A stretch of 64,000 nt of DNA from Bilabrum cf. latius. Lineage: Eukaryota. Below are positions 24,031-64,000 of the stretch, in pieces; positions within the stretch are counted from its first letter, which is position 1, and each line of letters starts with the position of its first letter. The notes under the pieces were generated by a model. The model was given only the letters and a program-made list of their open reading frames with translations, ran no database searches and was not told where the DNA came from. The DNA lies in NCBI GenBank assembly GCA_965178125.1, contig OZ237762.1, positions 682,001-746,000 of the forward strand, read 5' to 3'. Made by a program: the position numbers and the translations under genes.

Positions 24031-24108
24031 GCTTATCACCTGACGGGTATTTACCGTGAGTGAACGTGCGGTTAGCCGACGATAGGAATCCGGCTAGCAT
24101 GCAGCACC

Positions 24109-24134
24109 GTGCATTGCATCTAGATGCAGTGCAC
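24109..24134. repeat. 26-bp near-perfect palindrome in a divergent intergenic region
   Basis: GTGCATTGCATCT|AGATGCAGTGCAC, one mismatch. Confidence 0.7.
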
Positions 24135-24280
24135 TGAAAGACTAATCCATGGATGGATCGACATTTGCCGAGAACACAGGAAACTTGTTTTATCCGTTAG
24201 AGAAGCACACGGTAATAGTCACCAAGTAGCTTTATTTAAAATTAACTGCTCGATCACGAGATCAAGTGAACTTGAACAAA

Positions 24281-27200: not shown

Positions 27201-27694
27201 CAGAGCTGCAACGCACCCGCGAGGTCGCTCTGATGGCAGCAGAGGACAGGCGGAGCGCGGGCTGGGCCTACAACCGATCCGTGATGGTGACCCACGGCCC
27301 TACTGCATCCAGCGCTCTGGTGGGGGATGGCAGGGGCACGGTGAGGGTGGGTGTGACCAGTGCGGCCGGGTCGGGGGGGCATGGCTTGCGCGACCGCCGG
27401 GCAGCGATGGCGGCGTTCGAGGAGCTGGATGTAGGCGGCGGTGCACCGCTGTGCGAGGCAGCGGGGGTGCCTCGGCTAGCACCTTCCGAAGGTGCGCAGG
27501 TCTCGTATCGCCCTCATGAGATAGAGGCGCACAACGCGCGGTTCCAGCAGATGCAGGCAGAGGCGAGGAGGAGGAATCCGTGGGGATACAGGCAGGGTGT
27601 TGAGCCGGTGCCTCTCAAGCCGGAGCAGATCAAGCTGCCGTCCAAGCCCAGGTCAACGCCACGGGCAGAGGGCGAGCAGCAGGACTTGCGCTGA
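24281..27694 (+). CDS. Ankyrin-repeat protein, tandem copy A (~1137 aa with TAG=Gln)
   Basis: Same-frame pieces joined by TAG at 24710, 25175, 26306, 26423 and 27116; ends in TGA. Ankyrin motifs: LHILAARSGNVEAL, GWTVLYEACFQSQVEVIRY, YTPLARAILRKEHALALYLLLRGA, DGCTLLMAGAASGNAEIVKLLLALGADP. Confidence 0.85.
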
Positions 27695-28312: not shown

Positions 28313-31300
28313 ATGGCATCAGTAGATCCCGGATCTGTAACAGGTCTTCGCAGTGCCCTAATGGAAAGTAGCGAAGAATCGCAGCAAAGTCACGGCCTTG
28401 CTATTCGAATTGGCGCAGCTGGTGCCCGGTAGCTGTCTTCAGTAGGTGCTTGTGATATTTGGTGGGCAGTGCGTTGCTTAGATCCCTCCAAACTTCAAGA
28501 GCATGTGCGTGGCATTCAGGCTGAGGAGATCGCGGGCATATTTGAACACGGGCTTTCGGTGGTCCAGTCCCTCTTCGCCGTGTTCTACCATCCCAAGTAT
28601 TACATATCGACGTAGCAACTTCCTGAAATTGATTGGGGGTATTTGGCATGTGATGATATGTTTGGAATCTCAACCGAAGGTGCAGATCAGCATGATGAAA
28701 CGCCTTTTGTATGCGACACTGCCAACAGCGCCGAGGAGGTAGCCAAGCGAGCTGGGGAGGATGCTTAGACCCTAGCTTCATTTCGCGATGGCGATGCAGG
28801 TCCATCTAGTGGAGCAGGAGCAGCCCGTGGTTGCAGCAAGAGCGCCAGCATGACAGCGCAACCGTCGATCCTCGCCCGCAAGGACGGCACGGTGTTCATG
28901 ACCATGGAGGAAGCCAAGCGAAGGTTCGGCGCGTGCCTGGACATCCTGATAGAGGCCCTTGGGGGCGCGGAGTCTTCCTGCTTCAAGGCGGCGATCGACT
29001 TGGAACCAGAGGACAATAAGCCAAGAGACAAGTCAGGGTTCGAGGCACTGCCCCCTCACCCCGTGGTGCTGGCAATGGGGCGGAACCTCCCAGGCGCCGC
29101 GCATCTGATCCGAGCTGTGGCATCTGACGTCACGTCAGGGTGGTACGCTGAGTCAGTCCGCAAACCGAGAGGCTACGGCGTCCGCGATCGGAAAATCAAG
29201 CCCTCCTCTGGCTTCGGCATGGCCTTCCTGTAGCTGGCCCAGATGCCAAGGAGCAGCCACAGCCTGCACATCCTGGCCGCACGGTCCGGAAATGTACAAG
29301 CACTGAGAGCCATGGCGGAGTGCGGCATTCCTGCCAAGACAAGGGGATGGACGGTGCTGTACGAGGCGTGCTTCCAGTCGCAGGTGGAGGTCATTCGGTA
29401 TGCGATCGATGAGCTGGGAATGGATCCCAGGACCTCGACGATCAAAGACGGCAAGGTTCCGTTCGACCACAGTATCACTGCTCCCAGCACTGGTGCGTTC
29501 GATCTGCTGGTGGACGAGTACGGCTTCGGCGATCGGCTCGAAGCAGAAGGTCCTGCCATGTTGACCGAAGCGATCGGCGATTGCAACGAGGTGACTCTGT
29601 CCCTCATCCGGCGCGGTGTGCCCTACGACACGAAGTCATTCAGGGCTGACAGTCTAGGCAAGAATCTTGCCTTCATTGCTATGTCGTGCAAAAGCGGCAT
29701 CCAATCCACGCTTGATTTGATCACGGAGAAGACGCAGACCAGGGTGCCGGTGCTTGAGGCTCTCATGCAGCCACCAGTTCCATGTCGATGGTACGAAGTG
29801 TCAGACGTGTGGGGCATACTGCTGAATAGATACAATTATGGTGATGAACTAGCCATGAAGGGTCTAGAGCTCGTACTGACATGGCTGCTAGAGCGTGGGC
29901 TGACAGGACCCGAGACCCCTGGGAAGCTGGCCATCCAACTTCGTGCTGCCTGGGCCCTTGATGCCGCTGCCAAGCATGGGTTCGAGCCTTTACGGGAGGA
30001 TATCAGCAGAGTACTTCGCTTGCATTCGGAGGATTTGAGGTACTCGGGGGTCGCTGTTGATGAAAGCTGGCGCTTCTACCACAAGTTCAGCCAGCTGGAG
30101 GCCGTGCAGGACTTCATGATGCACGGTACAATCGCTGACCCGGACGACCCTGCCCTTCCCGATGCCCCCGCTGCGGCATGCGCTGTTGCGATCATTGCCG
30201 AGGTTTCTGTGAGGGAGTCCAGCTCGACCACAAAGATCCGTGCGATCCGCAGCTGGATCCCGCCAGGCGCCAACGTGAGCTTTGCTCCCACGGTCGGACA
30301 GATGGACGCGCTGGATCCAAGAGGTCAAACATGGTCCAAGGCTCACACGAGTCGTGTGATGTTCCCTGCTCGAGTTCAATAGTTCACGCCTCTGGCCAGG
30401 GCAATCCTGCGTAAAGAACACGAGCTGGCGGCGTATCTGCTGCTTCGGGGAGCGCGCTTGCACCCGATCCATGATGCATGCAACGGCCATGAGCTTGAGG
30501 ATCTGTTCTGCAATTCTCGGTGGGCAAGCAGGCCGCGCAATCGTTTCGATTGGAAGCTCACCGACTGCCTTGTAACCCACGACACGGAAAGGCTGCGAGA
30601 CCTGCTGCTGTGCAGCAGCGGGTCTGACCCAGTACTCGGCAAAGTCAAGGCGATCCTGGGCGGCAACCTCAAGCGACAGCTGGCCATCGCTAGATGGCGA
30701 CGGGCTGGGTTTGTCCAGCTGTGGGCCGGCAGTGCCTGGAAGTGGGCGAGGGAAGGCAACATGCGGGGCCTGCGGAAGTCGATCAAGATCGGTGCTAGGG
30801 CTGGGGCACTGGAGCAGACTCAATCAATGAGCGTGGGATCCGGCGAAGCAGCAGCAAGCTCTGCAGGAGGCAAGTATCGCTCGTCACAGTACGGACGAAT
30901 GGTATCGGCCGCTGACCCAGGTGGATGTACAGGTGCGGGAGGAGCTGCAGCGTCCTCAGACCAAGCCGATGGCCGTTTCACCAGCGACGGTTGCACGCTG
31001 CTCATGGCAGGCGCTGCCAGCGGGAATGCCGAGATCGTGAAGCTGCTGCTGGCGCTGGGAGCCGATCCGAGTGTGACGAGTGCGGACGGTGCCACTGCAG
31101 GCGTGTGGGCAGAGCGCGCGGGGGCAGCGGAATGCGCTGCACTGCTGCACGAGGCCGAGGCCACCAGAGCTCGGCTGCTGAACAGGCGCGATGAAGCGTC
31201 CTCGCTCATATAGTCGTCAAAACATCGTAAAGCTGGCATCAAGGACCAGATCCGCATGCTTCAGGCAGAGCTGCAACGCACTCGCGAGGTCGCCCTGATG

Positions 31301-31741
31301 GCAGCAGAGGACGGGCGGAGCGCGGGCTGGGCGTACAACCGATCCGTGATGGTGACCCACGGCCCTGCCGCAGCCAGCGCTCTGCTGGGGGAGGGCAGGG
31401 GCACGGTGAGGGTGGGTGTGACGAGTGCGGATGGGTCGGGAGACCATGGCTTGCGCGACCGCCGGGCAGCGATGGCGGCGTTCGAGGAGCTGGATGTAGG
31501 CGGCGGTGCACCGCTGTGCGAGGCAGCGGGGGTGCCTCGGCTAGCGCCCTCCGAGGGTGCCAAGATGGTGCTTGGACCAGGTGAGACTGCGGCACGCAAC
31601 GCACAGATGCGCTAGATGCGGCTGCAGGACAGAGGCCTGTGGATGAACAGAGGTGCGAGCGTGCAGCCATAGCAGCGAGTGCGCCTTCTCTTGCCGTCCA
31701 AGCCCAGGAAGCGTGCTAGTGATGGAAAGATAGGGGTATGA
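28313..31741 (+). CDS. Ankyrin-repeat protein, tandem copy B (~1142 aa with TAG=Gln)
   Basis: Starts MASVDPGS (copy A: MASANPGS). TAG at 28430, 28613, 28766, 29231, 30380, 31211, 31613 and 31670; ends in TGA at 31739-31741; colinear with copy A to LPSKPR. Confidence 0.85.
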
Positions 31742-44666: not shown

Positions 44667-44766
44667 CGTATTGTCCCTAGTGCGCTCTGAAGTGAGGCAA
44701 ACGTCCCTTGTGCAAGAATCCGAGTCCACCAAACCTACACAGCCAAATTGCAAATGCACAATAAAA
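44667..44766. promoter_or_regulatory. 100-bp bidirectional promoter region between the SET gene and MutY
   Basis: Head-to-head ATGs at 44666(-) and 44767(+). Confidence 0.55.
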
Positions 44767-47118: not shown

Positions 47119-47290
47119 AGCACACCCGAGCCTCGTGTGGAGTTGCGACCAAATGGCCACAGAATCATCACCGAACAATAGAAAATGATTTCGTCCTTCT
47201 GCGATCGGTCATCTGACACGGAATATCACTCTAGCGGCGTGCGTACCCGATCGTCCGGGCTCTTCTTCACTCGGCAGACGACTAATAGTT

Positions 47291-50200
47291 ATGAACTTTA
47301 AATGCAGGAGTGTCGTGTTCCCGCTCGTGGTCCTGGTAAGCCTGTTGTGCAGCCTGTCACAATTATTGTCTGCAGACCAACGGATTGTCTGTCGCTACGT
47401 CAATTTCTGTCACTCGTCGGCCCTTCTTGTGAGCAGATCATTGGAATAAAGGCTCAAGGTGGATGTTCAGCAGGTCAATCAGCTCGACTTGCGCAGCTGT
47501 GGGAGTGTGAGGCTTCTAACCCGAACCAGCAGTGGTCGCTCGATGCGTCCTCCAAGAAACTGAGTCTTGTGGGAGTGCCTTCGATGATCATTCGAAACTA
47601 CTCTGCATCTGAATTACCCAGATGGCCGCGTGCGGAGTGGGGGATCCCAGATACATCGCCCACAGCCGTGCTAGACGATCTTCCGACCGACCCGGAAGCT
47701 GCAATAAGCTTCATGTGGTCCATCGTGCCAGATTCAGACGGGAAAAGCGTCAACATCAAGTCCATTGACAAGGATGGAGCGGACACGGGATACTGCTTGG
47801 GCGCGGCCAGCGAATCCCAGGAGCTAAACTTCGTGATCGAGTCTCTGAACCTGAGAGGGTACCCCGGAACGGAGGCCACGGTGGTTCCTTGCGACGGGCT
47901 CGGCCAGGCCAACCAGATCAAATGGTAGAAGATCGAGTCTCCTAATGAAGATGGCTCCTTCTAGCTGAAGCATGTCGATTCCCAAGGAAATTGCCTCGAC
48001 GTGGGTTCGTCGGCCAGCTGCCACGACGCTCACCTCAAGGACCTGCCGTTCTGCGATCGCACGCTGTCGCCAAAGGACCGTGCCAAGGACCTGGTAAGCC
48101 GACTGGACAACACCGAAAAGATGATGCAGATGCGCGGCGGGTACATTCTCTCATCGCCGGGCGTGCCGAGGCTAGGCGTGCGTGGGATTCAGATCGTCGA
48201 GGATCAGTCCGGCGTGGGCACGTTCTGCGGCACACCGACCTCTGAGGACTCCACAGGGTGCCCGACTGTGTTCCCTGCAGGTCCATCACTTGGTGCCACC
48301 ATGAACCGGACCCTGTGGGAGGAGGTGGCCCGCACATCCGCGATCGAGGCCCGGGGTCTCAGCAGTGAGACCACAGCTTGCCCCTACTTCTCCAACTGCT
48401 TCCGGCCGGGACCCGTTTCGGGCTACATGACGTTCGCGCCGAACCAGAACCTTGCTCGAGACCCGCGGTGGGGCCGCACCGGTGAGGTCGTGTCAGAGGA
48501 CGTGGTGCTTACCTCTGAGTGGGCCAAGGTGATGGTGAGGGGGTTGCAGACGGAGCGGGATGGGGTTCTCGCGGCGGGCAGCACCATCAAGCACTTCGCT
48601 TTCTACGATTTCGAGAACTCCACCGCGGAGGGACTGATTCGTTTCACCTTTAACGCGAACATCTCCCGAAAGGACGCTGCGCAGTTCTACCTGCCTTCCT
48701 TCAAGGTGAGCCAGGCCGAGGATCCCCTTTCGCTCATGTGCGCGTACGAGGCGTTCCACTGGTCCGACGACCCTGACCCGCCCAAGAACGGCGTTCCGCT
48801 GTGCGCCGCGAAGAACCTTACAGAAGGGTTACTCCGGGGTCGCTGGGGCTGGGACGGATACATCGCAAGCGACGATGTGGCCATCGACATCATGTGGGCT
48901 CTGCATGGGTACGTGCCCGACCGCGACTCCGCCATCTCTGCTGCCTTCGAGGCGGGCGTGGACATGGACACGGGCGTTTCGTTTGACTCGAACCTCATCT
49001 ACATGATCGACATCGGGAAGGTGTCGCAAGAAACCCTCGACCGCGCCGCCACTCGCGTGCTGACGGCCGGCGCCTCACTCGGGCAGTTCGATCCAGCGGG
49101 CAGCGGACCTTGGGACAACGTTACCATGGACGACGTGGACACTCCGGCGCACCGGCAGCTGGCCCTTGAAGCCGGAGAGCAAGGCATTGCTCTACTAAAG
49201 AACAAAAATGGCGCGCTGCCCTTTGCACCCGGTGAGCAGCTCGCCATTGTCGGGGCTGCAGCCAACTTCAGCGTGGAGATGTCTGGCGTCGACAACTACA
49301 ACGGCACCAGCCTGCATCTGTACGAGAACACCCCACTGCTAGCGCTGCTGCGGAGGAACGAGTCCTCGGTGTATTCCTACGGAGCCGAGCGGACCGGGAA
49401 CGACACGCAAGGCATCCTCGCCGCACAGCAAGCCTGCGCCGACGTGGGCCGCTGCGTGCTGCTGGTCGCATCGCATCCCGCTGGGGAGCAGTGTGACAAC
49501 GTGCACGTCACCCCGTCACCAGGTTAGATCGCGCTCGCACGGGCAGTGCTGCAGGCGACCGCCCAGGCAGGCGGGACCGTGACCATCGTGACCATGGGAG
49601 TCACGCCTGTGACCCTGCCCCCCGACGTGGTCGCGGCAGCCGACGCCGTGGTCAGCGCGCCGCTGCCCGGCGAACTCGGCGGCGAAGCCATCGCCCGCAT
49701 CCTATACGGAGAGACTTGTCCCAGCGGCCGCCTGACCGTGTCTCACTACCCCAGCCAGTTCGAGCGACGCAAGCCCACCGACATGCGACTGAGCGGAGGC
49801 GGGGGCAGCACGTACGCCTGGTACGACGCTTCGTTCTTCGGGGCTGACATGCCCTTCAAGTTCGGTGAGGGCCTGTCGTACGAGTAGATCGACACCAAGA
49901 GCCTCTCGATTCACGTCGCGGCTCGCGACCCGTGCAACCACGCCGTGCGCGGCTCCCGCACTGGCGCCAGGGACTGTTCTTCAAAGCCGGATGCAGCACG
50001 CCCAGCAGATAGGGAGCTTGCTGCAACCCAGAGCCAGGAAGATCAGGGCAAGGCGCCCCTGCTGACCCTCAACACGTCCGAACTGTGTAAAGGCGCCGCA
50101 TCCGTGACCGTGAATGTGACTGTGGGAAGGCAGGCCAGCTTCGAGGGGCCGGTCGCAACCTCTATGCTTGCCATCGTCCAGTTCCCTGCGGAACTCGTCA

Positions 50201-50475
50201 ACCAGGGCGCAGCACCGCCGAACGGGCAGCTTCTTGGCTTCGAGAAGGTGCTGCTCCCGTCAGCCAACGACCAGTCGGTCGTTGCGATCGAGCTGGACGT
50301 GCGGCATCTCGCGCGGCCCATCGGGCCCCTAGACGTGGCTGGCGTCCTTCCGGGCGGAGTGGTGTCACCGGGCGTGTATCCAGTCCGTGTGGGCGCCCCT
50401 GGTATGTGGCAGGACGGGACCATCGAGCTCGTGGGGAGCGCTTGCGGCGCCACCCAGGCTGCAATGCCTTGGTGA
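47291..50475 (+). CDS. Secreted glycoside hydrolase family 3 (beta-xylosidase/beta-glucosidase-like) with an N-terminal ricin-B lectin-like domain
   Basis: Exon 1 (47291-47335) plus exon 2 (from 47437) give a signal peptide MNFKCRSVVFPLVVLIIGIKA. QxW repeats (NPNQQWSL, NQIKW). GH3 motifs DPRWGRTGE, KHF, WGWDGYIASD, PSGRL, FGEGLSY. TAG at 47926, 47962, 49525 and 49885; ends in TGA. Confidence 0.9.
47336..47436 (+). other. Spliceosomal intron (101 nt) in the GH3 gene
   Basis: GTAAGC...GAGCAG, phase 0; restores a continuous hydrophobic signal peptide. Confidence 0.7.
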
Positions 50476-50881
50476 GCAACGCGAAGCGAGCTTCCTTTTC
50501 AAGCCGAGACAGAAACGATGGCGAGCCCATTCGTTAGGTTCAAGGTAGATCCAGGTGAAAAGTAGACGCTGTCATCATTCGAACATGTTCCTGTTCTATT
50601 TACAGCCACTAAACAGTCAATGACTTTGCTTCGAAGACAGCATCAAGATGAAGACAATAATATAATTTCTTTTGTGTGTTTGGTTGCACGCAAAAGCAGA
50701 GTGCCAAAGACTTCAGTTTGAAGAGATTTAGGAGCTATGAGTAATAGTGAGATTGTATGGCCCACCGTTGCGGTGATTGCCGTCCTCTTGCCGGGCGGGG
50801 CCACAGAAACCCTTTGCACGAGAATCGCTACCGTTCATGAACAACCATTTCGCAGCAGGTAGAGACTCTGTTTCACTGCAG

Positions 50882-52321: not shown

Positions 52322-52493
52322 GTCATCCTGCTTGCTCAACCCGGAATCCAGAATCGGATTCCAGATCTATTGGATTTAGGCCCTAGACTAGGCCTATGGG
52401 TAAAATATGAATGGCTGAGGCCTGCTTAACCGAATAGAAATGTTTGCCCAGTCAATTCTTCTCTTTTGCAACGTACCTAACGCATCCAATAGA

Positions 52494-55400
52494 TCAAGCA
52501 GTCGGTGCAGCACACATCCGGGTTTGCAAAATACCGCAGCGACTCGGGTAGCGCTGGCCCGGCTCATCTGCTTGCCTTACAACCTTACCTTGATCGTCGC
52601 CAGCACCCGTCTCCTCCCCATGGACGCTTGGCTCTTCCCCCACCTTGGTCAGCAGCTCCACCGTGATCTTCTCTCGAACCTTGGGGATCTGCTGGATCAC
52701 ATCGGTTGGAAGCACGCTCAGCACCTGCCACGCTCCGCGCAGAGGGTCTGCCAACTTGCCTGGCAGCGGCCAGTACACAATGGTAGTGAGAATACCAACA
52801 ACCACTTGCATGATACTTACGCCCACGAATATATTGTTGATCACGTCCCACACGGCCCGTTGTGACTGATCAGCGTATCGAGAGCTGCTGAGCTCCAACG
52901 CGTCACGCAAGTGAGGGTTCACCACATCTCCAAGTCTAACGACGAGACCAATGAACTACGCGGGCTGAGATAGCATGAATTGTGAGCTCCCTGTCTCTAG
53001 ATCAGGCAAAGGAGAGCTAAGTCTCAGCTCTCGCGACTTGCGGACTGTCTGGATCGCAGCGTTTCGGGCCCCCCACCGCATCATGCTGCCAAAGACTTCG
53101 AGGCACGACTCCCTCTCATTCGATTCAGCACACCCATCATCTAGCATGATCTGCCTGGCCACCGGATCCTCTAGCGACTCCAGGTTAATTTCGAGTCCAG
53201 TGGATTCATCGACGAAGTTCTCCCCGAGCACGATTCTGTTCGATGTCACCAAGATTCGCGCTTCGATCTACTGCAGCTCCTACCGGAGACGAGCGCGGGT
53301 GGTATTGCTGCCACCGTAAACAAAATCGCCCATGATTCGTTGCATTCTCACGCAGTCAGCGGCCAGTCGCTATGATGTGACCAGACGTTCGTTTGCGGTA
53401 ATGGTGTTCGTTTGGATGCTCACAGCAGACAGGACCTCCATGATAACCCAGCAGAAACCCAGAAGCACAGGAAGCAGGAACACGAGAGTGTACAACCACG
53501 TAAAATTCCAGTTGTCGTCGAAGGAACGAAGCAGCCTGCGGCGACTTACCTACAGTTTACTCCGGCCAGACGCCCTCCGCCTCACCATCGGCCTTGATCC
53601 AGAAGTAGCAGTGTCAAGCGCTTGCGTGCCCGCATCCTACGCTTGGATCTTGTCGTCCTCGATGATATCCTGCCTATCTGCATCCTCGTCATCCTCGTCA
53701 ATTTCATCCAGCTGATTTGCAAGCCTGGTAAGTTTTCGCAATGTCCTAGCCTTGAGCTGACCAGCTGTCCTAGACGGGACCATGAACACAATCTGAGCAA
53801 CCCGGGCCGTCTTCTCGCGGATCTAGGCGAGCCGTCTGTACAGGTAAAACCCAGAAATAATCGCGACAACGAGGAATACACTCACTCCCATGCATGAAAA
53901 AATCAACACTGCGAAGTCATACGAATCGACAATATCGAGCTGCCGCAGCGAAATGCTCTGATTCAGCGCCTGCAGGTACTGTTCTCGATTGCCGGATATA
54001 GCAGTGGCTTCCGGGGCATTGAACGAAATAGCAGCCGTGTCGTTGGTCTCCACTAGCTGCAGCAGGACGCTACTAAGATACGTGCCCATTTCAAGCAGCG
54101 AGGCGTTGAACCTGCGGGGTAGCCCGCCACTAGACGAAGGCTCAACGAGCAGCCAGTCTCGGTCATCAATTGTGTCGCCTGCCCTGTCACTAGTAAGGAG
54201 CGTGCTTGCCGATACAAGCTTTGAATGACGGTCCTCGTGCCGCCGAGCAACCGCTTCTAAATGCTCAAACTCTCTACGCATCTGTACCGGTCCCGGGTCC
54301 GGGGAAATGCCTGCACCTACTGCAGCAATCGTACGGAAGACAGACTCCGACGTCTAGAAAGCCAGGGCCTGATCGGTCGCGAGGTAGAGGTTTGCACTGA
54401 TATCCGCCACCAGCACCCCCATCATGTTGCACACAGCTAGTGATAGGAACCCACCCAGAACCGCGATTCCAGCACCGAGTCCGAATGTGCAGCGGATGCC
54501 ATCCACCTGCTCCGAGGCACTCTCGTCGGTATTTTTGACAGCGCGCACCAGCTTTGCGTGAATGTCTTGGATCTTGCCCTGCGAGGAAGAGCCTCCATCG
54601 CCACTGCCACGCGCCGTCCCAGATTCAAACACAGCCCCTCCATGCTGCTACGAGGAGGACAGTCGCCCAGGTGAGGACCTGTTTCCCTTGATCGCGAGTG
54701 CACGAGCACGTGGTGCAATTCGTATAGACTACGAATGACCGGGATCTACTGGAGAGTGTCGGCTACTACCAATTTGTACCGAGGGATCACGGGGTGCCAA
54801 CTGAACGCCATTGCTGCTACTCGAACCATCAACATTGGGGCCGCTTCCGAGTCCAGACGCGATCTAGATCTATTCCCGCATGGCCTCCCTCTCCACCTGG
54901 CTCGGCATCCTCCACCGCAGCATGAAACACGACCGACCCACCTGCTCAGACACGTCCTGCACCGAGCCAAGCACCAGGTCGGTCTTGTCAGCTGCATTCT
55001 GCACCGGGATGAGCGCCGTCTCATACACTCTAAGTAGGGGCTTGGGCTGCAAACTGGGGGGAAGAACAACCAGTCTTGTGCTTGGCGTAGTCTGGCCCGT
55101 TTCATCATCCATTTCTAGCGCCTTGGATCCCAAGAAGGATCCCTCAGACCGCAGCACGCCGGGCTTGCCAGGCGACTGCGCACCAGCAGATGCATGGCCA
55201 ACGCCTGAAGCTGATCGTATGCGTACTTCTTCATCGCCAAGCACTGCATCTGACACAATCGAACTCCATACATCGCTTTGGTATCCAGCCATATTTGCAG
55301 TGGGGAAGAATCGAGTCACTGGCAGCGGCTCCCGCTGCAGCTGCTCGCTGTCCGTCCCCAGAAGCAGCATCGACCGAGCGCTCGCTGACAGCACCTTGTA

Positions 55401-58160
55401 CCCCTGGTCCCGACCTGAGAAAAAGATCACGTGCTCGTCACAACGAAGCACATCGATGCCCACAGACAGACGAGGCGCAGACGTGGCCTCATCGGGCGTC
55501 GACTCGAGCAGAGAAATGATCACGGGCAATGCAGAACCAGATGATGGCAGCACGAACGACACCTCCGTCTGATTCAAAGCATCCGAGAAGCCGCACCGCT
55601 GCAGCCGATGCAGTCGCTGGTTGTAGATGCCCCGCACAGGCTCAGGCAGCAGCGTCTGAAACGACAGGCCCATGATCTGGCTCGTGTTGGCGAAACCAAA
55701 CACACGGCACGTCGACGGCGAGGCCGACAGGATCTCGCCCACGCTCCCATCAGCCACGCTCAGCGTCAGGTTGGCGGCGTTGTCGTCCAGCAGGTCCACC
55801 TGAGGAGCCTCCGACCCTAGCACCACATGCCGCACCGCCTTGGCCCTCTGCCGCGTGTGTCTCTCCTCCAGCCGGTCCGCCTTGTTGAACAGCTCCATGG
55901 CCGTCAGCGGGTCGTTCATCAGCTCCACCAGGAACTCTGCATACCCACGCGCCACCAGCGCGCCTTGATTCAGACGTAGCATGGTCCGGTACAGCTCGTC
56001 CGTCTTCTTCAGGTCAGACTCAATCTCCTGCCCCACCCCCACCACCGTGGCCAGCTCCAGCTTGTGCCCAGCCAGATGGTCCCACAGCTTGAGGATGCTG
56101 CGCATGGCCGCCACCTTGCTCTCCTGCGCCTGCCGCGACAGCGACTCGAAGACCACGCGGTCCAGTGCCGACAGCTTGCTCGAGTCCGCGCCTTCCCGCA
56201 GCTCCCGAGTGCGCCCGTACACGTACGCCTCCAGGTCCAGAGACGGAGACCGCAGCCGGGCCTGGGCCAGAGCCTGCGCCTCGGCGAAGTTGTTCTCGAA
56301 GCAGAACTGGTGGTAGAACTCCGCCGCCAGCACGTGCGCCATGGCCGTCTGTCCGAAGTGAGCCGTCATCTGCCGGTAGGCCCGCTCTGCCGTGTACAGC
56401 CTGTGCTCGTCCTCCCTGTGCCTGCGGGTGGCGTACTTCATGTTGGCCAGCCTCCATCCGAAGAATGTGGACTGGTCGATGCTGGCGATGTCCTCCTCGG
56501 GCGACAGCAGGCTTTGCATCACATCGTCCTCATGCCCGTCCTCCCCATCGGCCCCGGCCTGCTTGGAGAAGTGCTTCGTCTGAGCGTCGAGCCGAGCCAT
56601 GCTGCCCGCATCGGTGCGCACGGTGGGCGCGTATGCCACGGTGCCGGCCCCGTCCAGCATGCCCCCGTACTTGCCGCCATCCTGCACAGACCCGCGGGCG
56701 GGGCCGGGATCCGAGGACTTGCCGCCGGAGCTGCCTCCCGCCACAGACGCTGCTCCTCCACCTCCACCAGCGGTTGGCAGCTCCTGCAGATACTCAGCCG
56801 CGTCTGCTTGCCGATCTCCGCCCCGCATGCTGCCCATGGTGGCGTTGTCCGCTGTGCGCCCATACTCCGCATCCTCATCATCGTTCCCAGCGTCCCGCCC
56901 GATGCGGCCCCCGTACCTCGGCCTGCGACGGATCGGCACGGTGTGCTGCCCCTTGCGGGACTACTCCACAGACGACCCCCGCGACTCCACCACGCGCGAG
57001 TACTCCTGCATGCGGTGCCGCGCCCACACGTCCAGGTGCACCAGGCTCTCGCACGCCTCCAGGGGAAGAGCAGCGATGAACTGCTCGTGCATGTAGCACG
57101 CCAAGAAGCCACCGCAGTACGCCAGCACAGACCCAAGGTACAGCAGCAGCGACTGGTCCCCGGTGTCCGTGTAGCGGGCCAGCGCCAGCACCAGCGTGCT
57201 CCACAGGAACACGCACGCGAAGCCAGCCTGCATCGCATTCATTCCCGGGTGCACGAACGGCAGGTACCGCACGGCCATCCCCAGCCAGGCGGCCCCGGCG
57301 AGGAGCAGCAGGACGACGAGGACCCACGAGTCGAGGACGAAGTCCCTGAAGACGCTGTAGCAGAGCACGAGGGCGACCTTGACGAGGAGCATGGCGGCGT
57401 CCATCTGGCCGTGGCTCTTGGCGCTCCACGACTTGCTCGCGGGGTTGCGGTCGATGTAGGTAGCGGCCACGAAGACGAGCAGGCCGTTGTACACCAACAG
57501 GAGCAGAGCGGCAAGTATTCTCGCTAGTACAACCGCTGCATCATCACATGGTACATTTGTTGAAAGCCAAGATCCTGACTGGGCTCCCGAGCAAGATACT
57601 GTAGCACTCATGAAGCTTGCCAACGGAATTACTGCAACAGTTGTTGCCACCAGGCTTGCAATCCGGACCGCTGGAAGTAACAAACCCATGTATCCGCTAT
57701 TAGTATGCGATGGCGTAAATCCTGCGGTGGAACAAGTGGGTTCTCAACAGCATGGCGATGGCACGCCAATTGCGATACGAAAGGCAAAGCGAAGCAAAGC
57801 GTTTTTGCTCTTACCAAGCAGACAGAGAGCTGCGAGAAAGCTGCCAATCATAATACTAGAAGAAATAGCAAGCGCTACTATAGCAGCAGAATTGCTTTCG
57901 CGGGGTTCTATTTGCCCCGAGAGGAGCATTGCTATTGTGTTCGCACTGGGGGATACACCCCAATCCGCCGGAATCGCAACCCAGGGGAAGGACAAGAGCT
58001 GTAATCCTTCCATTATCGATTGAATGATAGCAAACCACCAAATACAATGCTAATTGGCATTCAAGCGAAGCGCAGTAGTGCTCAACGCAACAGCCATGGC
58101 ACGAATCGGCGATCGGTTGGCCTCGGAGTCTTCATGAATCGAATCACCGGTTGCTCGCAT
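52494..58160 (-). CDS. TmcB/TmcC-like multipass membrane protein with a PAS domain, copy 1 (one intron, 57722-57814)
   Basis: N-terminal TM bundle, helical region (LDLEAYVYGRTREL), PAS-like GEILSASPSTCRVFGF...FQTLLPEP, and C-terminal TMs. At least 14 in-frame TAG (58050, 56961, 54870, 54864, 54729, 54648, 54354, 53823, 53637, 53550, 53370, 53280, 53268, 52956); ends in TGA. Confidence 0.8.
57722..57814 (-). other. Spliceosomal intron (93 nt)
   Basis: GTAAGA...CCGCAG, phase 1; removes the in-frame TGA at 57744 and gives LCLLGFTPSHTNSGYMGLLL. Confidence 0.75.
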
Positions 58161-58407
58161 GTCGCGATTTTCAGATCTTTTCGGTTTGTGTCAGTTGGCC
58201 AGGACCTGCGAGGTTGTACTGTTGAAGAATGCTCCGATTGTGATTTCCCTTCGCGTCACCACCAAGTCACTTGGTCGCAAGCGGCCACATCGGCGAGGTT
58301 GCAACCACCGTAGCGTTGAGAAGAAGATTAAAATCACGGGAAGATTAGAACCTAAATTGACGGCGATTTGAGCCCGGTAGTACATATAAAAATGATTTTT
58401 GCGTTGA

Positions 58408-58896
58408 TCTTCGCCCTGGCCCCTTGCATTTGTCGGCTCAATCACTGGTGCCGTCCGTAACGTCGTGCCGATCGGAGACGAGGACGGCGATGGCGCCTTC
58501 GTCTTTGTGGCGCTCGAGCCGAGCAACGGCATGATGGTGCTGGTCAACCAGAGCCCCATCGAAGGCAAGGAAACCTTATCTGTCGTGTAGTGTAAGGGTG
58601 ACGTGGCAGAACCACACGGCGTGGGTGGTGACGATGACGACGGGTCGCTTGGTGGAGGAGCAGTCGCGATCATCGTGGTGGTCATGCCGGTTCTGACTGC
58701 AGTGGTTGTGTGCTTCTTGTTGTGAATTTTCTGCCCTGCAATGCTCTGCTGCTGCTTCCAGAGGCGCGCCGGCGGAGAGGACAAGGGCAAGGACGTGGGG
58801 ACCGCTGCAGGCAAGCCGGCTATGAAGCCAAGCCAGAACGAAACTCAGGGGCAGCGAGGAAGCCCCACGAGCAGGTAGGGGATGTCACAACTTTGA
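58408..58896 (+). pseudogene. Probable remnant of a type I membrane protein C-terminus (FG-GAP-like motif plus TM)
   Basis: VVPIGDEDGDGAFVFVA...LGGGAVAIIVVVMPVLTAVVVCFLL*IFCPAMLCCCFQRR. In-frame TGA at 58723 at the end of the TM; no evident 5' part. Confidence 0.45.
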
Positions 58897-59109
58897 GGTC
58901 TCGCAGCTCGCCTTCCGAATGCATGAGCCCACAGAGACGCGAAAAGGAAGCAAAACATGTTTAGATCTTTCGTTCAGTCTGAAGCAGACTTACTGTGACT
59001 TCCACACCGCACTGCACCTTCAATGATTGATCAGCAGGCGGCTCGCGGCGCGGCGAAAGTGTGGTTCCGCAACAAAAATAAACTCTTCTGGAGGCAAACG
59101 CATTCGAAA

Positions 59110-62100
59110 TCACGCCTCCCCAAGCTACATTTTCGAGAGCTCGGCCAGAAGCGCTTGCTGCGCCCTTGGGGTTGCTTCCCAGACGGCGGGGGGCAGCACC
59201 CGGACCGCTTGCCAGGCAGCCCGCACAGGGAGAGCGAGCCGCTCCGGCGCGCCCCAGTACGCGTACGTCGTGAACAGTAGCGCCGCAGCGAGCATTGCCG
59301 AGGACGTAATCAGAATGAGCCGAAACCCATCTGTGTTTACAGCGAGCGCCTCTCGCGCGTACCGGCCACTGCTTCTCTCCAGCGCCACCCTGACGTGAGG
59401 ATTCACAATCTGAAGCATCTCATGCACCTTCAGAATAAAAAGCTCAGGCTGGGACAGCATGAAGAGCGACGACCGCCTCTCTAGGTCGGGATCTGGTAGG
59501 CCTAGGCGGATGGAGCGCTGCAGCCGGACGATCTGGATGGCTGCGTTCCTGATCCCATGCGTCAAGATCTGGCCACCCACCACGCTGCACTCGTCATACA
59601 GGTCCGAACCGTGGCACCCGTCATCCAGCATGATCCGCCTCGCTACTTTGTCCTCCACAGGGCCCAGCTGGTTTTCCAATCCGGTTGACTCGTCCACGAA
59701 CGTTTCCCCCAGAACAATCCTCTCACTGGTCTGCAGGATCCTTTCCTCCACGATCTGCATCTCATCGATCAGCCGAGCCCTCGTTGAATTGCGGCTGGCG
59801 TATACAAAATCGCCAGCCAAGAGGGTAGTCCTCACGAGATCACTCGCCAGTCGCTGGGAAGACACCAGCCTCTCGTTGGCAGCGATCACGCGGTTAAGCA
59901 TATCTGCGAAAAGGCTCACCCGCACGATCACCCAGGCGAACATGAGCATAACCGGGATAGAGAACAGCATAGTCTGCACCGGCACGAAGGACCAGGTGTC
60001 GCTGAACCGGCGCTGGCCTTCCTTCTTGCCCCGCTTGTGGCGAGACCTCTGACGGTTCGACCGCAGGATACCCTGCCTCTGCTTGGTGGACCCGCGGTTG
60101 GGCTTGTCCGCTGGGGCGCTCCTTGATGGGGCCAGTATCTGAGAGGTTGGCTCGTGCCCGGAATCGCTGTCGTGACGCCCTTGTTCGCCCTGCTCGATTT
60201 CATCCGTTGCCTGGACGCCAGGGCAGCTCGAGTCACTCGAAGTCTTCGGCTCGGAGCGTTCTCGGCCCGTCACACGGTCGTGCGACCCGGCTGCAGGCAC
60301 GTCTGCTTCTGCCGTGGAGTCGCTGTCAGTGCCAGTGTTTTCGCGCGGGTCGTCGTGGACAGCATCCTGCCCGACCGCCGCATCTTGCCCGGATTGCTCG
60401 CGCGATTCCGCAGCTACGCTGAGAGCGGGCGTACCGGGTTCGTCGTTGTTTTCGTCATACGGTGCCACAGTGGAGTCGTACGCTGAGCGACCGCCCGAGG
60501 ACGCCTCTCGTGGATGAACAGAGGAGCCATGCGAAGCAGAGCGACGCCTCCGGCCCCTACCTCTCTCTCGATGGGACTCTGCTTGCTTCCTCCCCTTGCT
60601 TTCAGACCCGGCGTCGTCGAATCCCTCCTCGTCGAGGATGTCCTGCAAGTCGTCGTCATCCTCCTCCTCCATGTCGTCTAGCTGGTTCGCCAGCTTGGTG
60701 AGTCGCCTAAGGGTCCTTGCCTTGACCTTCTTCGCGGTCCCTGACGGCACCATAAACACGATCTGAGCCACCCGGACCGTCTTCTCTCGGATAGAGTTCA
60801 GCGCTCGGTAGATCAGGACCAGGAACACTCCGAGCGAAATGGACAACAGGGCGGCGTAGATCGCAGCAAAGGTCGCGAGTGATTGGTTGAAGGAGTCCAC
60901 AACGTCGAGTTGCCGCAGGGACATGCTCTGATTCATCGCGCGCATGTACTCCTCCCGGTTGTTTGAGATCGCATCAGAGGATGGGGAGCCAAAGTCCATG
61001 GTGGCAGTGTCGTTGGTAGCAGCAACCTGCAGCATGACGCTGCTAAGGAATGTGCCCATCTCTTGCAAGGAAGCGTTGAATTCCCTGTCCTGGCCAATCG
61101 TGGCTGAAGGCTCGACCAGTGTCCACTGCCTGACTCTAGCGTCCTCTCCGGCGCGGTCACTGTACAGGCCTCCGTCTGCACCCAGCATCTCGCGCAGTCG
61201 CTGTTCATGCCGGTTCGAATTCACGATAAAGTATTCAAACTCGGCACGGAGTCGCGCGGCGCCAGGGAACGGAAGGATGCCCCCTTGCTCAGCCGCGACG
61301 TTCCTGTAGATGGAGTCGCACGTCTGGAATGCGAGGAACTGGTCGGTGGACGCAAACACCAACGAAATGGTCTGGTCGAGTGCCATTCGCATAACCTCAC
61401 CGATAGGCATGGAGGCGATCCCGGCCAGCAGGGCAACTAGGATGGTCACCATGAACGTGCACTTGACGGCGTGCACGTGCCGCTCTGCTACCGTAGCACC
61501 GTGCCGTACGGCCTTGGATAGTCGGCTCAAGAGCTTCTCTTTCTCAGAGGACTGCGATGAATCGCCGTCCTACTTGCCAGACTCTTGCACAGCCAGCTGC
61601 CTGCTTGTGCCTGCCCCGTGCGCCTCATCTAAGCCCGCGTGCATGCCAGCAGTGGCGCTGCTGGCAGACGGCCCTGTGCTGTAGGTGGCTAGTGCGTGCG
61701 GATTGGATGCCTTTACAAAGCCAGAGGGCGGCCTCATCCTCGACAGGGTATTCATTGACCCATGCCCGCGCCCGTGCCCGTATGTGCCCTGCTGCACCCT
61801 CCCCACGAAGCTGCCTCGACGGTGACCCACGCGCTGTGCGGGCCGGCGAATTCTGCTTGTGGGCTGTTGCATGGGATGGACAGGGCTTGCCGAGCTGAGG
61901 ATACCGGGCTGCTGGTCCGACGGCTGTTCCCTAACAGGGATGGCTACATCAGGTTCGTCATCTTGGCTGCCGATGTCCTGAACCTCATCATTCGACTGGC
62001 TTGGGGTAGCGCTCGCATCATCTTCTACTCGGTTGGCAAGGAGGACTTGCTCTTGCAAGGCCTCCCTCTCCACCTGGCTCGGCATCCTCCATCGCAGCAT

Positions 62101-64000
62101 GAAACACGATCGACCCACCTGCTCAGACACGTCCTGCACCGAGCCAAGCACCAGGTCGGTCTTGTCAGCCGCATTCTGCACCGGGATGAGCGCCGTCTCG
62201 CAAACACGTATAAGTGGCTTGGGCCTCAAGTTCCGTGGAAGCTTCGGCATGCGCACCTACTGCCGTGTACTATCATCGTCCTGCTCGCTTGTCCACTGAA
62301 TGCCGCGCTACGTTCCGAGCTCCTTGGCCTGGCCACCAGTAGGTGTCGTGCGAGACTTGTCGACGTTTTCCATCCAGGATCCTTTCCTTCCAATGGTAGA
62401 TTCTCTCAACAAGGCTGGCATCTCATCGCTACCGTCACGCCTCTTCCCCCCGCCCGGCCGGAGGGCCCGAATCCGTTTCACGAGCTCGACGCAATGCCTC
62501 ACTGACACTGATTCTTGCATTCCAGAAGTTACTTCAACATTCAGAATACCCTCGAGGATGGGGGCATCCCATCGACCCGCACGAACACCAGCAGAGTAGG
62601 CAGTGGGGAAAAATCTAGTCACTGGCAGCGGCTCCCGCTGCAGCTGCTCGCTGTCCGTCCCCAGAAGCAGCATCGACCGAGCGCTCGCTGACAGCACCTT
62701 GTACCCCTGGTCCCGACCTGAGAAAAAAATCACGTGCTCGTCACAACGAAGCACATCGATGCCCACAGACAATCGAGGCGCAGACGTGGCCTCATCGGGC
62801 GTCGACTCGAGCAGAGAAATGATCACGGGCAATGCAGAACCAGACGATGGAAGCACGAACGACACCTCCGTCTGGTTCAGAGCATCCGAGAAGCCGCAAC
62901 GCTGCAGCCGATGCAGTCGCTGGTTGTAGATGCCCCGCACAGGCTCAGGCAGCAGCGTCTGAAACGACAGGCCCGTGATCTGGCTCGTGTTGGCGAAACC
63001 AAACACACGGCACGTCGACGGCGAGGCCGACAGGATCTCGCCCACGCTCCCATCAGCCACGCTCAGCGTCAGGTTGGCGGCGTTGTCGTCCAGCAGGTCC
63101 ACCTGAGGAGCCTCCGACCCTAGCACCACATGCCGCACCGCCTTGGCCCGCTGCCGCGTGTGTCTCTCCTCCAGCCGGTCCGCCTTGTTGAACAGCTCCA
63201 TGGCCGTCAGCGGGTCGTTCATCAGCTCCACCAGGAACTCTGCATACCCACGCGCCACCAGCGCGCCTTGATTCAGACGCAGCATGGTCCGGTACAGCTC
63301 GTCCGTCTTCTGCAGGTCAGTCTCGATCTCCTACCCCACCCCCACCACCGTGGCCAGCTCCAGCTTGTGCCCAGCCAGATGGTCCCACAGCTTGAGGATG
63401 CTGCGCATGGCCGCCACCTTGCTCTCCTGCGCCTGCCGCGACAGCGACTCGAAGATCACGCGGTCCAGTGCCGACAGCTTGCTCGAGTCCGCGCCTTCCC
63501 GCAGCTCCCGAGTGCGCCCGTACACGTACGCCTCCAGGTCCAGAGACGGAGACCGCAGCCGGGCCTGGGCCAGAGCCTGCGCCTCGGCGAAGTTGTTCTC
63601 GAAGCAGAACTGGTGGTAGAACTCCGCCGCCAGCACGTGCGCCATGGCCGTCTGTCCGAAGTGAGCCGTCATCTGCCGGTAGGCCCGCTCTGCCGTGTAC
63701 AGCCTGTGCTCGTCCTCCCTGTGCCTGCGGGTGGCGTACTTCATGTTGGCCAGCCTCCATCCGAAGAATGTGGACTGGTCGATGCTGGCGATGTCCTCCT
63801 CGGGCGACAGCAGGCTTTGCATCACATCGTCCTCATGCCCGTCCTCCCCATCGGCCCCGGCCTGCTTGGAGAAGTGCTTCGTCTGAGCGTCGAGCCGAGC
63901 CATGCTGCCCGCATCGGTGCGCACGGTAGGCGCGTATGCCACGGTACCGGCCCCGTCCAGCATGCCCCCGTACTTGCCGCCATCCTGCACAGACCCGCGG
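59110..64000 (-). CDS. TmcB/TmcC-like PAS membrane protein, copy 2 (5' end outside the window)
   Basis: Same-frame ORFs joined by TAG at 63331, 62308, 62257, 61570 and 59125; ends in TGA at 59110; colinear paralogue of copy 1. Confidence 0.8.

What the first reader, a model, noticed from the sequence alone, without database searches (positions are those of the whole stretch)
53370..63333. TmcB-like paralogues: TAG swaps with Gln codons at four aligned sites
Minus-strand pairs: 63331 TAG vs 56028 CAG (VVGVG[Q/*]EIE, inside a near-identical block); 54354 TAG vs 61324 CAG (LAF[*/Q]T); 53370 TAG vs 59854 CAG (ANERLVxS[*/Q]RLA); 54870 TAG vs 62047 CAA (EREAxxE[*/Q]). Both copies carry TAG at different sites, as expected for a synonymous codon. 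This identifies the amino acid without outside databases. Caveat: CAG to TAG is also the commonest nonsense transition, so the argument relies on both frames staying otherwise intact.
Basis: seen in the sequence. Interest (0 to 1): 0.85.

Follow-up and report, generated by a model that had tools for sequence, protein, structure and literature searches.

The report
Protist genome reading TAG as glutamine
This stretch comes from the nuclear genome of a single-celled eukaryote, probably a relative of the marine flagellate Cafeteria, that reads the stop codon TAG as glutamine while keeping TGA and TAA as stops, a rare code change I found no report of in this group.

Summary
But the four TAG/Gln pairs are a selection. 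Of 17 TAG sites aligned to a codon in the TmcB-like pair, 4 face Gln and 13 face eleven other residues.

The interpretation still holds.
- TAG is a sense codon across the whole window. Fourteen genes with family support hold 93 in-frame TAGs in 16,794 codons and end in TGA (12) or TAA (2).
- Gln is supported independently. A TAG in the GH3 glycosidase sits where 119 of 120 homologues have Gln.
- A metagenomic orthologue with in-frame TAGs of its own swaps TAG with CAG/CAA in conserved contexts.
- Relatives' ORFs, cut short by standard-code gene calling, end just before a window Gln in 7 of 18 cases.
- Both paralogues are under purifying selection (omega 0.14-0.30).

The genes are eukaryotic. 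The closest named relatives are Cafeteria roenbergensis proteins.

UAG-only-to-Gln is a known code variant (Iotanema, some ciliates). My literature searches found no stramenopile case. The tRNA and release factor are not in the window, so the mechanism is inferred. The earlier scan notes I retrieved concern phages only.

The parts
52494..57721 (-). TmcB-like gene copy 1, main exon (ORF 52494-57689 as listed, continuing in frame up to the splice acceptor). It holds 13 in-frame TAGs and ends in TGA.
   Evidence: frame read up to the intron
57722..57814 (-). 93-nt GT..AG intron of copy 1
   Evidence: Joint 57720>57814 (cut +1) in contigs of runs X5 and X6; GT and AG read
57815..58013 (-). Probable 5' exon of copy 1, in frame with the main exon and hydrophobic; the start codon is uncertain
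   Evidence: Contig X5 record 15 spans 57467-57720 + 57814-58133; sequence read (inference)
59110..63999 (-). TmcB-like gene copy 2, 5' end beyond the window. It holds 5 in-frame TAGs and ends in TGA.
63331..63333 (-). TAG (copy 2 aa 223) facing CAG at 56028-56030 inside the near-identical block
   Evidence: one of 23 codon differences in 469 codons
54354..54356 (-). TAG (copy 1 aa 1112) facing CAG at 61324-61326. Gln in 7 of 12 family homologues aligned there.
53370..53372 (-). TAG (copy 1 aa 1440) facing CAG at 59854-59856. Gln in 6 of 18 homologues, Glu in 4.
54870..54872 (-). TAG (copy 1 aa 940) facing CAA at 62047-62049 and CAA in the metagenomic orthologue L001
56961..56963 (-). TAG (copy 1 aa 243) facing CAA in L001. 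Other contigs of runs X1, X5, X6 and X7 read CAG here.
   Evidence: variant 56963 A>G on the + strand
59125..59127 (-). TAG (copy 2 aa 1625), four sense codons before the TGA. Other contigs of X1, X5 and X7 read CAG here.
   Evidence: variant 59127 A>G on the + strand
49525..49527 (+). TAG at aa 742 of the GH3 glycosidase (47302-50475), in the column where 119 of 120 homologues have Gln
24149..27694 (+). Ankyrin-repeat paralogue 1 (6 TAGs). Second paralogue test, with 28313-31741.
28313..31741 (+). Ankyrin-repeat paralogue 2 (8 TAGs). 81% identical to paralogue 1. Two TAGs are shared; the other partners are G, K, R, K, H, N, Q, Q, L.

Best explanation
The window is nuclear DNA of an intron-poor, GC-rich (about 59%) unicellular eukaryote whose closest named relative is the bicosoecid stramenopile Cafeteria. 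In this organism UAG is an ordinary, minor glutamine codon: about 13% of TAG+CAG+CAA in the 14 supported genes. UGA and UAA remain the terminators. The two TmcB-like genes are functional tandem paralogues, partly homogenised by a recent duplication or gene conversion, and TAG and CAG/CAA interchange in them as synonymous codons.

Shown: TAG is sense throughout the window; its meaning is Gln; TAA is not used as sense in the window; the paralogues are under selection; a relative in other samples shares the trait.

Inferred from established knowledge of other UAG-reassigned eukaryotes (passages of PMC5304391): decoding by a tRNA-Gln with anticodon CUA, one mutation away from tRNA-Gln(CUG), together with an eRF1 that no longer recognises UAG efficiently.
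For: 1. Sense use of TAG. Fourteen genes with Pfam or PDB support hold 93 in-frame TAGs in 16,794 codons, and 13 of the 14 have at least one. Each has exactly one in-frame TGA/TAA, its last codon (12 TGA, 2 TAA), against 5-63 per off-frame. TAGs are spread evenly along the genes. Under the standard code the longest ORF is 801 aa.
2. TAA is not sense. Reading TAA through leaves the big ORFs unchanged and only fuses MUTYH to GH3 across their spacer.
3. Gln, first line: GH3 aa 742 is TAG where 119 of 120 homologues have Gln.
4. Gln, second line: the paralogues. 6 of 26 partners are Gln (P = 0.00037). Gln is the best of the 20 residues by likelihood.
5. Gln, third line: the metagenomic orthologue L001/L002 (60-61% identical, GC 58%) has 5 in-frame TAGs and no other stop. 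Two of them face CAG in both window copies in identical contexts. Copy 1 TAGs at aa 243 and aa 940 face CAA in L001.
6. Gln, fourth line: of 18 short homologues (40% identity or more) whose alignment reaches their C-terminal end, 7 stop just before a window Gln. That is 6 of 17 distinct sites, P = 0.00012.
7. Gln, fifth line: three TAG/CAG differences between near-identical copies. These are 63331 vs 56028 and variants at 56963 and 59127.
8. Selection. Omega is 0.14 in the near-identical block (17.5 synonymous vs 7.5 non-synonymous differences), 0.30 in the middle and 0.24 in the C-terminal part.
9. Eukaryote, Cafeteria-like. The window encodes BTB/Kelch, ankyrin, MUTYH, HtrA/Nma111-like, SETD3-like, mitochondrial carrier, GH3 and TmcB proteins. 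It has GT..AG joints. The best named full-length TmcB hits are Cafeteria roenbergensis proteins. MUTYH falls in a 9-row clade (SH-like support 96) that includes the cluster holding Cafeteria MUTYH.
Against: - No tRNA gene lies in the window and no genome is held. The tRNA-Gln(CUA) and the eRF1 change are therefore untested.
- Most TAG sites lie in variable or gapped columns and say nothing: all 7 in MUTYH, HtrA aa 103, and none inside the aligned parts of the NMNAT-like or SETD3-like proteins.
- Several well-aligned TAGs face non-Gln residues. Copy 1 aa 1289 faces Ser in copy 2 and in 10 of 17 homologues. Copy 1 aa 1474 faces Ile, and Glu in 10 of 22 homologues. One L001 TAG faces Arg in both copies.
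- In well-aligned parts of the TmcB pair, TAG faces Gln at 4 of 8 sites, whereas Gln codons face Gln in 72 of 92 counts (Fisher P = 0.09). TAG sites may therefore be less constrained than ordinary Gln sites.
- Three genes have a TAG at or near a plausible C-terminus, so some residual termination at TAG is not excluded.
- The taxonomic placement rests on two proteins and a FastTree run.
- There is no protein-level evidence.
Confidence: 0.9

Rival explanations
1. TAG is a sense codon but encodes another amino acid (Lys, Arg or Glu are the nearest candidates), and the Gln pairings are ordinary replacements.
For: AAG is the partner codon at 4 of 26 paralogue sites, against CAG x5 and CAA x1. Arg is only 3.9 ln units behind Gln in the paralogue likelihood. 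One L001 TAG faces CGG in both window copies. Copy 1 aa 1474 sits in a column with Glu in 10 of 22 homologues.
Against: GH3 aa 742 lies in a column with Gln in 119 of 120 homologues. TAG/CAG or TAG/CAA pairs occur in fully conserved contexts between orthologues and between near-identical copies. 7 of 18 truncated relatives end just before a window Gln, and only one each before Lys, Arg and Glu.
Confidence: 0.04
2. TAG has two meanings: Gln inside genes, but still a (partial) terminator near true 3' ends, as in context-dependent codes. Alternatively it is read by near-cognate tRNA-Gln(CUG) with incomplete efficiency rather than by a dedicated tRNA.
For: MUTYH ends ...SKL-TAG-ATC-TAA. Copy 2 has a TAG four sense codons before its TGA. 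The mitochondrial carrier has its only TAG at aa 219, just after its last carrier repeat, followed by a 69-aa Pro/Gly/Ser/Arg-rich tail. TAGs are scarce in strongly conserved columns.
Against: 93 TAGs are spread evenly over gene length (deciles 8, 14, 10, 7, 5, 9, 11, 10, 10, 9). They include one at an invariant Gln inside the conserved C-terminal domain of GH3 (Pfam match 630-860; column). Three near-terminal TAGs in 14 genes is not clearly more than expected, and relics of former TAG terminators explain them equally well. Contigs of X5 and X6 that run through 12 TAGs stop about 45 nt past the TGA, not at a TAG. This is a weak hint only, because the runs are not on record as RNA.
Confidence: 0.1
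3. The TAGs are nonsense mutations in decaying pseudogene copies (CAG to TAG being the commonest nonsense transition).
For: The TmcB and ankyrin genes are recent duplicates, a class in which one copy often decays.
Against: 13 of 14 supported genes carry TAGs, yet none has an internal TGA or TAA or a frameshift. Omega is well below 1 downstream of the TAGs. A 60%-identical orthologue from other samples has different in-frame TAGs and no other stop.
Confidence: 0.01
4. The contig is not cellular but a giant virus or integrated viral element that uses an alternative code.
For: Ankyrin and BTB/Kelch proteins are common in giant viruses (recalled). A 2026 catalogue reports giant-virus bins that annotate better under stop-reassigned codes (passages of PMC13524828).
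Against: No Pfam match to any virus hallmark appeared among the 24 ORFs scanned. The genes include housekeeping types: MUTYH, a mitochondrial carrier, NMNAT-like, HtrA/Nma111-like. There are GT..AG joints. Nothing related was found in the viral contig collection. The best relatives are Cafeteria nuclear genes.
Confidence: 0.02

Closest known systems
Nuclear code of the fornicate Iotanema spirale (UAG = Gln, UAA kept as stop); Panek et al. 2017, PMC5304391 (abstract start in the search listing and passages read)
   Same: Only UAG is reassigned, to Gln, while UAA and UGA still terminate. The expected mechanism is the same: a tRNA-Gln(CUA) one mutation from tRNA-Gln(CUG), plus an altered eRF1.
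   Different: A different supergroup (Metamonada versus a Cafeteria-like stramenopile). UAA is the dominant stop in Iotanema, whereas TGA ends 12 of 14 genes here. That case rests on a transcriptome; here genomic DNA is in hand, but the tRNA and eRF1 are not.
UAG-only reassignment to Gln in phyllopharyngean ciliates and Protocruzia tuzeti; McGowan et al. 2024, PMC11687900 (discussion passages read)
   Same: UAG = Gln with UAA retained as stop, arising independently several times.
   Different: Those are ciliates whose genes end in UAA in 86.9-98.3% of cases and whose GC content is 27-54%. This genome is about 59% GC and prefers TGA. It is not a ciliate by its nearest relatives.
NCBI translation table 6 (UAA and UAG = Gln: many ciliates, hexamitid diplomonads, some ulvophytes, Amoeboaphelidium)
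   Same: A stop codon read as Gln through mutated tRNA-Gln.
   Different: TAA is not sense here. No gene in the window has an internal TAA, and reading TAA through only fuses two unrelated genes.
TAG-to-Gln ('code 15') phages of gut and rumen (the scan's earlier notes; PMC9523058 seen in a search listing only)
   Same: The same codon acquires the same new meaning.
   Different: Those are phage genomes that recode late genes with their own suppressor tRNA in standard-code hosts. This is a cellular eukaryotic genome recoded throughout.
Cafeteria roenbergensis / C. burkhardae nuclear genome (bioRxiv 10.1101/751586, abstract and passages read)
   Same: The closest named source of TmcB/TmcC and MUTYH homologues. 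It is also GC-rich.
   Different: Its TmcB/TmcC and MUTYH proteins are on record full-length. The paper names a non-standard code only for its mitochondrion (UGA = Trp). Identity to the window's proteins is only about 24-28% (TmcB) and about 43% (MUTYH catalytic part), so the window's organism is a distant relative, not Cafeteria itself.

Membership tests
UAG-only stop-to-Gln nuclear code (table-15-like; Iotanema type) | In-frame TAG inside conserved, otherwise intact protein-coding genes | tested here: met
   93 TAGs in 14 supported genes; exactly one in-frame TGA/TAA per gene, its terminator
UAG-only stop-to-Gln nuclear code (table-15-like; Iotanema type) | TAG positions correspond to Gln in homologues | tested here: met
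   GH3 aa 742: Gln in 119 of 120 homologues. Orthologue L001 swaps. 7 of 18 truncated relatives end before a window Gln. Paralogue likelihood is best for Gln. Many other TAG sites are uninformative.
UAG-only stop-to-Gln nuclear code (table-15-like; Iotanema type) | UAA and UGA still terminate | tested here: met
   12 genes end in TGA and 2 in TAA; there is no internal TAA; TAA read-through only fuses MUTYH and GH3. This was tested in this 64-kb window only.
UAG-only stop-to-Gln nuclear code (table-15-like; Iotanema type) | A tRNA with anticodon CUA and Gln identity | not testable with these tools
   No tRNA gene in the window; no genome held
UAG-only stop-to-Gln nuclear code (table-15-like; Iotanema type) | eRF1 N-domain changes that weaken UAG recognition | not testable with these tools
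   eRF1 is not encoded in the window
UAG-only stop-to-Gln nuclear code (table-15-like; Iotanema type) | Gln found at UAG positions in peptides | not testable with these tools
   No proteome data available
Table 6 (UAA and UAG = Gln) | In-frame TAA used as a sense codon | tested here: not met
TmcB/TmcC protein family | TPR_TmcB domain (PF25474) | tested here: met
   E 1.2e-14 (copy 1, aa 498-613) and 6.9e-15 (copy 2, aa 167-282), both above the curated cut-off
TmcB/TmcC protein family | Similarity to full-length family members beyond the TPR domain | tested here: met
   367 hits at E <= 0.001. P0137 (a Cafeteria TmcB/TmcC protein) matches query residues 2-878 in its best stretch.
TmcB/TmcC protein family | Membrane-spanning N- and C-terminal regions | not tested
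   Hydrophobic stretches are visible in the translations, but no topology prediction was run

The most novel reading that the evidence does not exclude
This is the first nuclear stop-codon reassignment in stramenopiles: an uncultured or newly sequenced bicosoecid-like flagellate lineage, also present in at least two metagenome contigs of differing record names, that turned UAG alone into a Gln codon. It did so in a GC-rich genome where UGA, not UAA, is the main terminator. That setting is not what AT-pressure 'codon capture' accounts would lead one to expect. TAGs still sitting at or just before the ends of some genes may be fossils of former TAG terminators and would date the change.
Probability: 0.5. 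Interest if true: 0.72.

Novelty: new member of a known kind. Interest (0 to 1): 0.6.

Why it matters
Nuclear genetic-code changes are rare. Cases where UAG and UAA part ways are rarer still: the passages of PMC11687900 that I read list Iotanema, Protocruzia, a few phyllopharyngean ciliates, one rhizarian and Scotinosphaera.

A further, independent case would add a data point against the idea that UAG and UAA are mechanistically coupled. It would also count against explanations that rely on AT pressure. This one lies in a Cafeteria-like stramenopile with a GC-rich genome dominated by TGA terminators.

There is a practical side. Standard-code gene calling shreds this lineage's genes. The best database relatives of the TmcB gene are fragments of 75-355 aa from metagenomes. 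Its proteins are therefore mis-annotated in public catalogues, and its contigs can be mistaken for non-coding or prokaryotic DNA.

Tried and rejected
- Whole genome: none held. tRNA scan of the window: 0 genes.
- Earlier notes of the scan: none for this genome. The word search returned only TAG-recoded phages.
- Homologue search with the HtrA/Nma111-like protein (aa 1-1700): no hit at E <= 0.001, probably swamped by low-complexity words.
I used the single protein instead.
- Viral contigs and prokaryotic genome contigs: no relative found.
- TAG sites examined and found uninformative (variable or gapped columns, or no TAG in the aligned part): all 7 in MUTYH (PDB alignments); HtrA aa 103 facing Thr of HtrA2; the NMNAT-like and SETD3-like regions; the 3 in the beta-lactamase-like protein and the 1 in the carrier, by eye, no homologue alignment run.
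- ESM Atlas with the PLD protein: no taxonomic lead.
- Maximum-likelihood tree with the default method did not finish in 300 s. FastTree was used instead.
- Sequencing runs: no RNA holder listed. I therefore make no claim about expression. What the contigs bridge is told as such.
- Readings rejected: pseudogenes, code 6, giant virus (see rivals). Pyrrolysine was not pursued because the genes are eukaryotic and the aligned residue is Gln.
- Literature searches for a stramenopile or bicosoecid nuclear code change found none. These cover open-access PMC and bioRxiv only. Supplementary files were not seen.
Full report
**Observation.** On the minus strand, TAG lies at 63331, 54354, 53370 and 54870. 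Its partners are CAG at 56028, 61324 and 59854, and CAA at 62047. Both ORFs match Pfam PF25474 (TmcB TPR repeats) above the curated threshold. With TAG read through they stay open for 1731 aa (52494-57689) and at least 1629 aa (59110-63999, cut by the window end).

The four sites are a selection, however. The two proteins are 64% identical over 1353 aligned residues. Of their 18 TAGs, one faces a gap, four face Gln and thirteen face E, V, L, P, N, G, S, T, K, D, I, L, K. Four of 17 is still unlikely by chance (P = 0.0034). At well-aligned sites the count is four of eight (P = 0.00013).

**The recoding covers the whole window.** Under the standard code the longest ORF is 801 aa. With TAG as sense the window resolves into long ORFs of up to 2577 aa.

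Fourteen genes have Pfam or PDB support:
- BTB/Kelch
- NMNAT-like
- a mitochondrial carrier
- LRR (weak match)
- a beta-lactamase-like hydrolase
- two ankyrin paralogues
- an HtrA/Nma111-like protease
- a SETD3-like protein
- MUTYH
- a GH3 glycosidase with ricin domains
- PLD
- the two TmcB-like genes

Together they cover 78% of the window and hold 93 in-frame TAGs in 16,794 codons. Thirteen of the 14 have at least one. Each gene has exactly one in-frame TGA or TAA, its last codon (12 TGA, 2 TAA), against 5-63 in each off-frame. The TAGs are spread evenly along gene length. An earlier tally of 105 TAGs in 18,241 codons used a list of 17 ORFs. Two of those have no family support, and one of them is probably the antisense of the carrier gene. 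Reading TAA as sense changes none of the large ORFs and only fuses MUTYH to GH3 across their spacer. TAA therefore remains a stop here.

**Which amino acid.** Paralogues alone give a modest answer. The second pair, the ankyrin genes at 81% identity, shares two TAGs. Its other TAGs face G, K, R, K, H, N, Q, Q, L. Over both pairs 6 of 26 partners are Gln (P = 0.00037). A likelihood using substitution frequencies from the same alignments ranks Gln first, Arg 3.9 and Lys 7.0 ln units behind. Among one-step neighbours of TAG, CAG occurs five times and AAG four, while TGG, TAY, GAG, TTG and TCG never occur.

Independent lines settle it:
- *GH3.* The TAG at GH3 aa 742 lies in a column where 119 of 120 homologues have Gln. 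The TAG at aa 862 lies in a variable column (S 36, T 27, K 16, R 14, Q 8).
- *Family columns.* Among 150 TmcB-family representatives, copy 1 aa 1112 aligns with Gln in 7 of 12, aa 1440 in 6 of 18 and aa 940 in 3 of 11. Against this, aa 1289 aligns with Ser in 10 of 17 and aa 1474 with Glu in 10 of 22.
- *Orthologue.* Two metagenome contigs, L001 and L002, carry an orthologue that is 60-61% identical, with GC 58%. It has five in-frame TAGs of its own and no other stop. Two of those TAGs face CAG in both window copies within identical peptide contexts, one faces CGG in both, and two lie in diverged stretches. Copy 1 TAGs at aa 243 and aa 940 face CAA in L001.
- *Fragment ends.* The best database relatives of the TmcB gene are fragments of 75-355 aa from short metagenome contigs. 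That is what standard-code gene calling would produce in a TAG-recoded lineage. In 18 fragments the alignment reaches the fragment's own end. The window residue just past that end is Gln in 7 of them, or 6 of 17 distinct sites (P = 0.00012). The rest may be contig ends.
- *Near-identical copies.* Between near-identical copies there are three TAG/CAG differences. One is 63331 vs 56028, among 23 codon differences in a 469-codon block. The other two are variants at 56963 and 59127 in other contigs of the sequencing runs.

**Are the genes alive?** Nei-Gojobori estimates give omega 0.14 in the near-identical block (17.5 synonymous vs 7.5 non-synonymous differences). The middle part gives 0.30 and the C-terminal part 0.24, although dS is saturated there. 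The ankyrin pair gives 0.55. There are no frameshifts.

**Reads.** One run (X1) covers 44001-54903 with one contig and no differences, at flat depth. It may be the window's own source, so it is not independent support. Contigs of two runs from other studies (X5, X6) match 52446-54903 and 52451-54911 without a difference. They run through 12 TAG codons and stop about 45 nt beyond the TGA of copy 1. X5 and X6 also lack a 93-nt GT..AG segment (57722-57814, minus strand) just upstream of the listed start of copy 1. X6 alone lacks a 112-nt GT..AG segment at 50747-50858. These runs are not on record as RNA, so I treat this only as a hint that the genes have a few spliceosomal introns and are transcribed through the TAGs.

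**Who is it?** The domain content is eukaryotic. Named best hits for MUTYH are stramenopiles and dinoflagellates. In a FastTree of 110 rows, with 11 redundant oomycete rows left out, the window's MUTYH sits in a 9-row clade (SH-like support 96). One member of that clade represents the cluster that holds Cafeteria roenbergensis MUTYH. The best named full-length TmcB relatives are also Cafeteria proteins, at 24-28% identity. The organism is therefore most likely a distant relative of Cafeteria, a bicosoecid-like stramenopile. This rests on two proteins only.

**Mechanism.** The tRNA and release factor cannot be examined, because there is no tRNA gene in the window and no genome is held. Passages of PMC5304391 note that only anticodon CUA reads UAG while ignoring UAA. 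They also note that tRNA-Gln(CUA) is one mutation from tRNA-Gln(CUG). By analogy I infer a tRNA-Gln(CUA) together with an eRF1 of reduced UAG recognition.

**Comparison and novelty.** UAG-only reassignment to Gln is known in Iotanema spirale, Protocruzia tuzeti and some phyllopharyngean ciliates (passages of PMC5304391 and PMC11687900). Table 6 fails here because TAA is not sense. Seven literature searches found no report of a nuclear code change in stramenopiles or bicosoecids. The Cafeteria genome paper mentions a non-standard code only for its mitochondrion. These searches cover open-access texts only. I could not see supplements, and a 2025-2026 genome paper for this organism might exist outside the library. 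I file the finding as a new member of a known kind. Its unusual features are the lineage, the GC-rich genome and the dominance of TGA terminators.

**Open point.** TAGs lie at or near plausible C-termini in three genes: MUTYH (two codons before TAA), TmcB copy 2 (four sense codons before TGA) and the carrier (at aa 219, followed by a low-complexity tail). They may be relics of former TAG terminators or signs of residual termination. The window cannot tell which.

Noticed in passing
window 57722-57814 and 57815-58013 (minus strand): Contigs of runs X5 and X6 skip a 93-nt GT..AG segment just upstream of the listed ATG of TmcB copy 1. The sequence upstream of it continues the reading frame with a hydrophobic stretch, so the gene probably has a short 5' exon and starts further upstream than ORF listing shows.
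   Followed up: partly
window 50747-50858 (plus strand): One low-depth contig of run X6 skips a 112-nt GT..AG segment that covers the listed TTG 'start' of the PLD gene (50777). The PLD gene therefore probably has an upstream exon. The bacterial-style TTG and GTG starts in the ORF lists are artefacts for this eukaryote.
   Followed up: no
window 47113-47118; 59125-59127; 12736-12738: Three genes have a TAG at or near a plausible C-terminus. MUTYH ends ...SKL-TAG-ATC-TAA; the -SKL would be a peroxisomal-type ending if TAG stopped there (motif recalled). TmcB copy 2 has a TAG four sense codons before its TGA. The mitochondrial carrier has its only TAG right after the last carrier repeat, followed by a 69-aa Pro/Gly/Ser/Arg-rich tail. 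These may be relics of former TAG terminators or residual termination.
   Followed up: partly
window 12224-13387 (+) vs 12526-13392 (-); 22657-23775 (+) vs 22723-24177 (-): In two places a long open frame exists on both strands. Pfam supports the minus-strand ones (mitochondrial carrier, beta-lactamase-family hydrolase). The plus-strand ORFs are probably antisense artefacts of GC-rich coding DNA. The carrier ORF holds only two of the usual three carrier repeats, so a further exon may lie upstream.
   Followed up: partly
window 24149-27694 and 28313-31741: A tandem pair of ankyrin-repeat genes, 81% identical (omega 0.55). They share two TAG codons at the same aligned positions (24710/28766 and 25175/29231), so those TAGs predate the duplication.
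   Followed up: partly
window 56007-57340 and 58675-63343: In run X1 the summed contig depth is about 30-46, against a flat 18.8 elsewhere. Many short contigs carry variants there. The genome probably holds further near-identical TmcB-like copies that the assembly collapses or splits.
   Followed up: no
window 44671-45002: The listed ORFs of the SETD3-like gene (minus strand) and MUTYH (plus strand) overlap head to head by 332 nt. The true start codons are probably further inside each gene. For MUTYH, similarity to human MUTYH begins at about aa 42.
   Followed up: no
L001 1-2651 and L002 1-2424: Two metagenome contigs with different record names encode what reads as the same TmcB-like protein over their shared part, with the same in-frame TAGs. 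The same or a very close TAG-recoded organism therefore occurs in more than one data set.
   Followed up: partly
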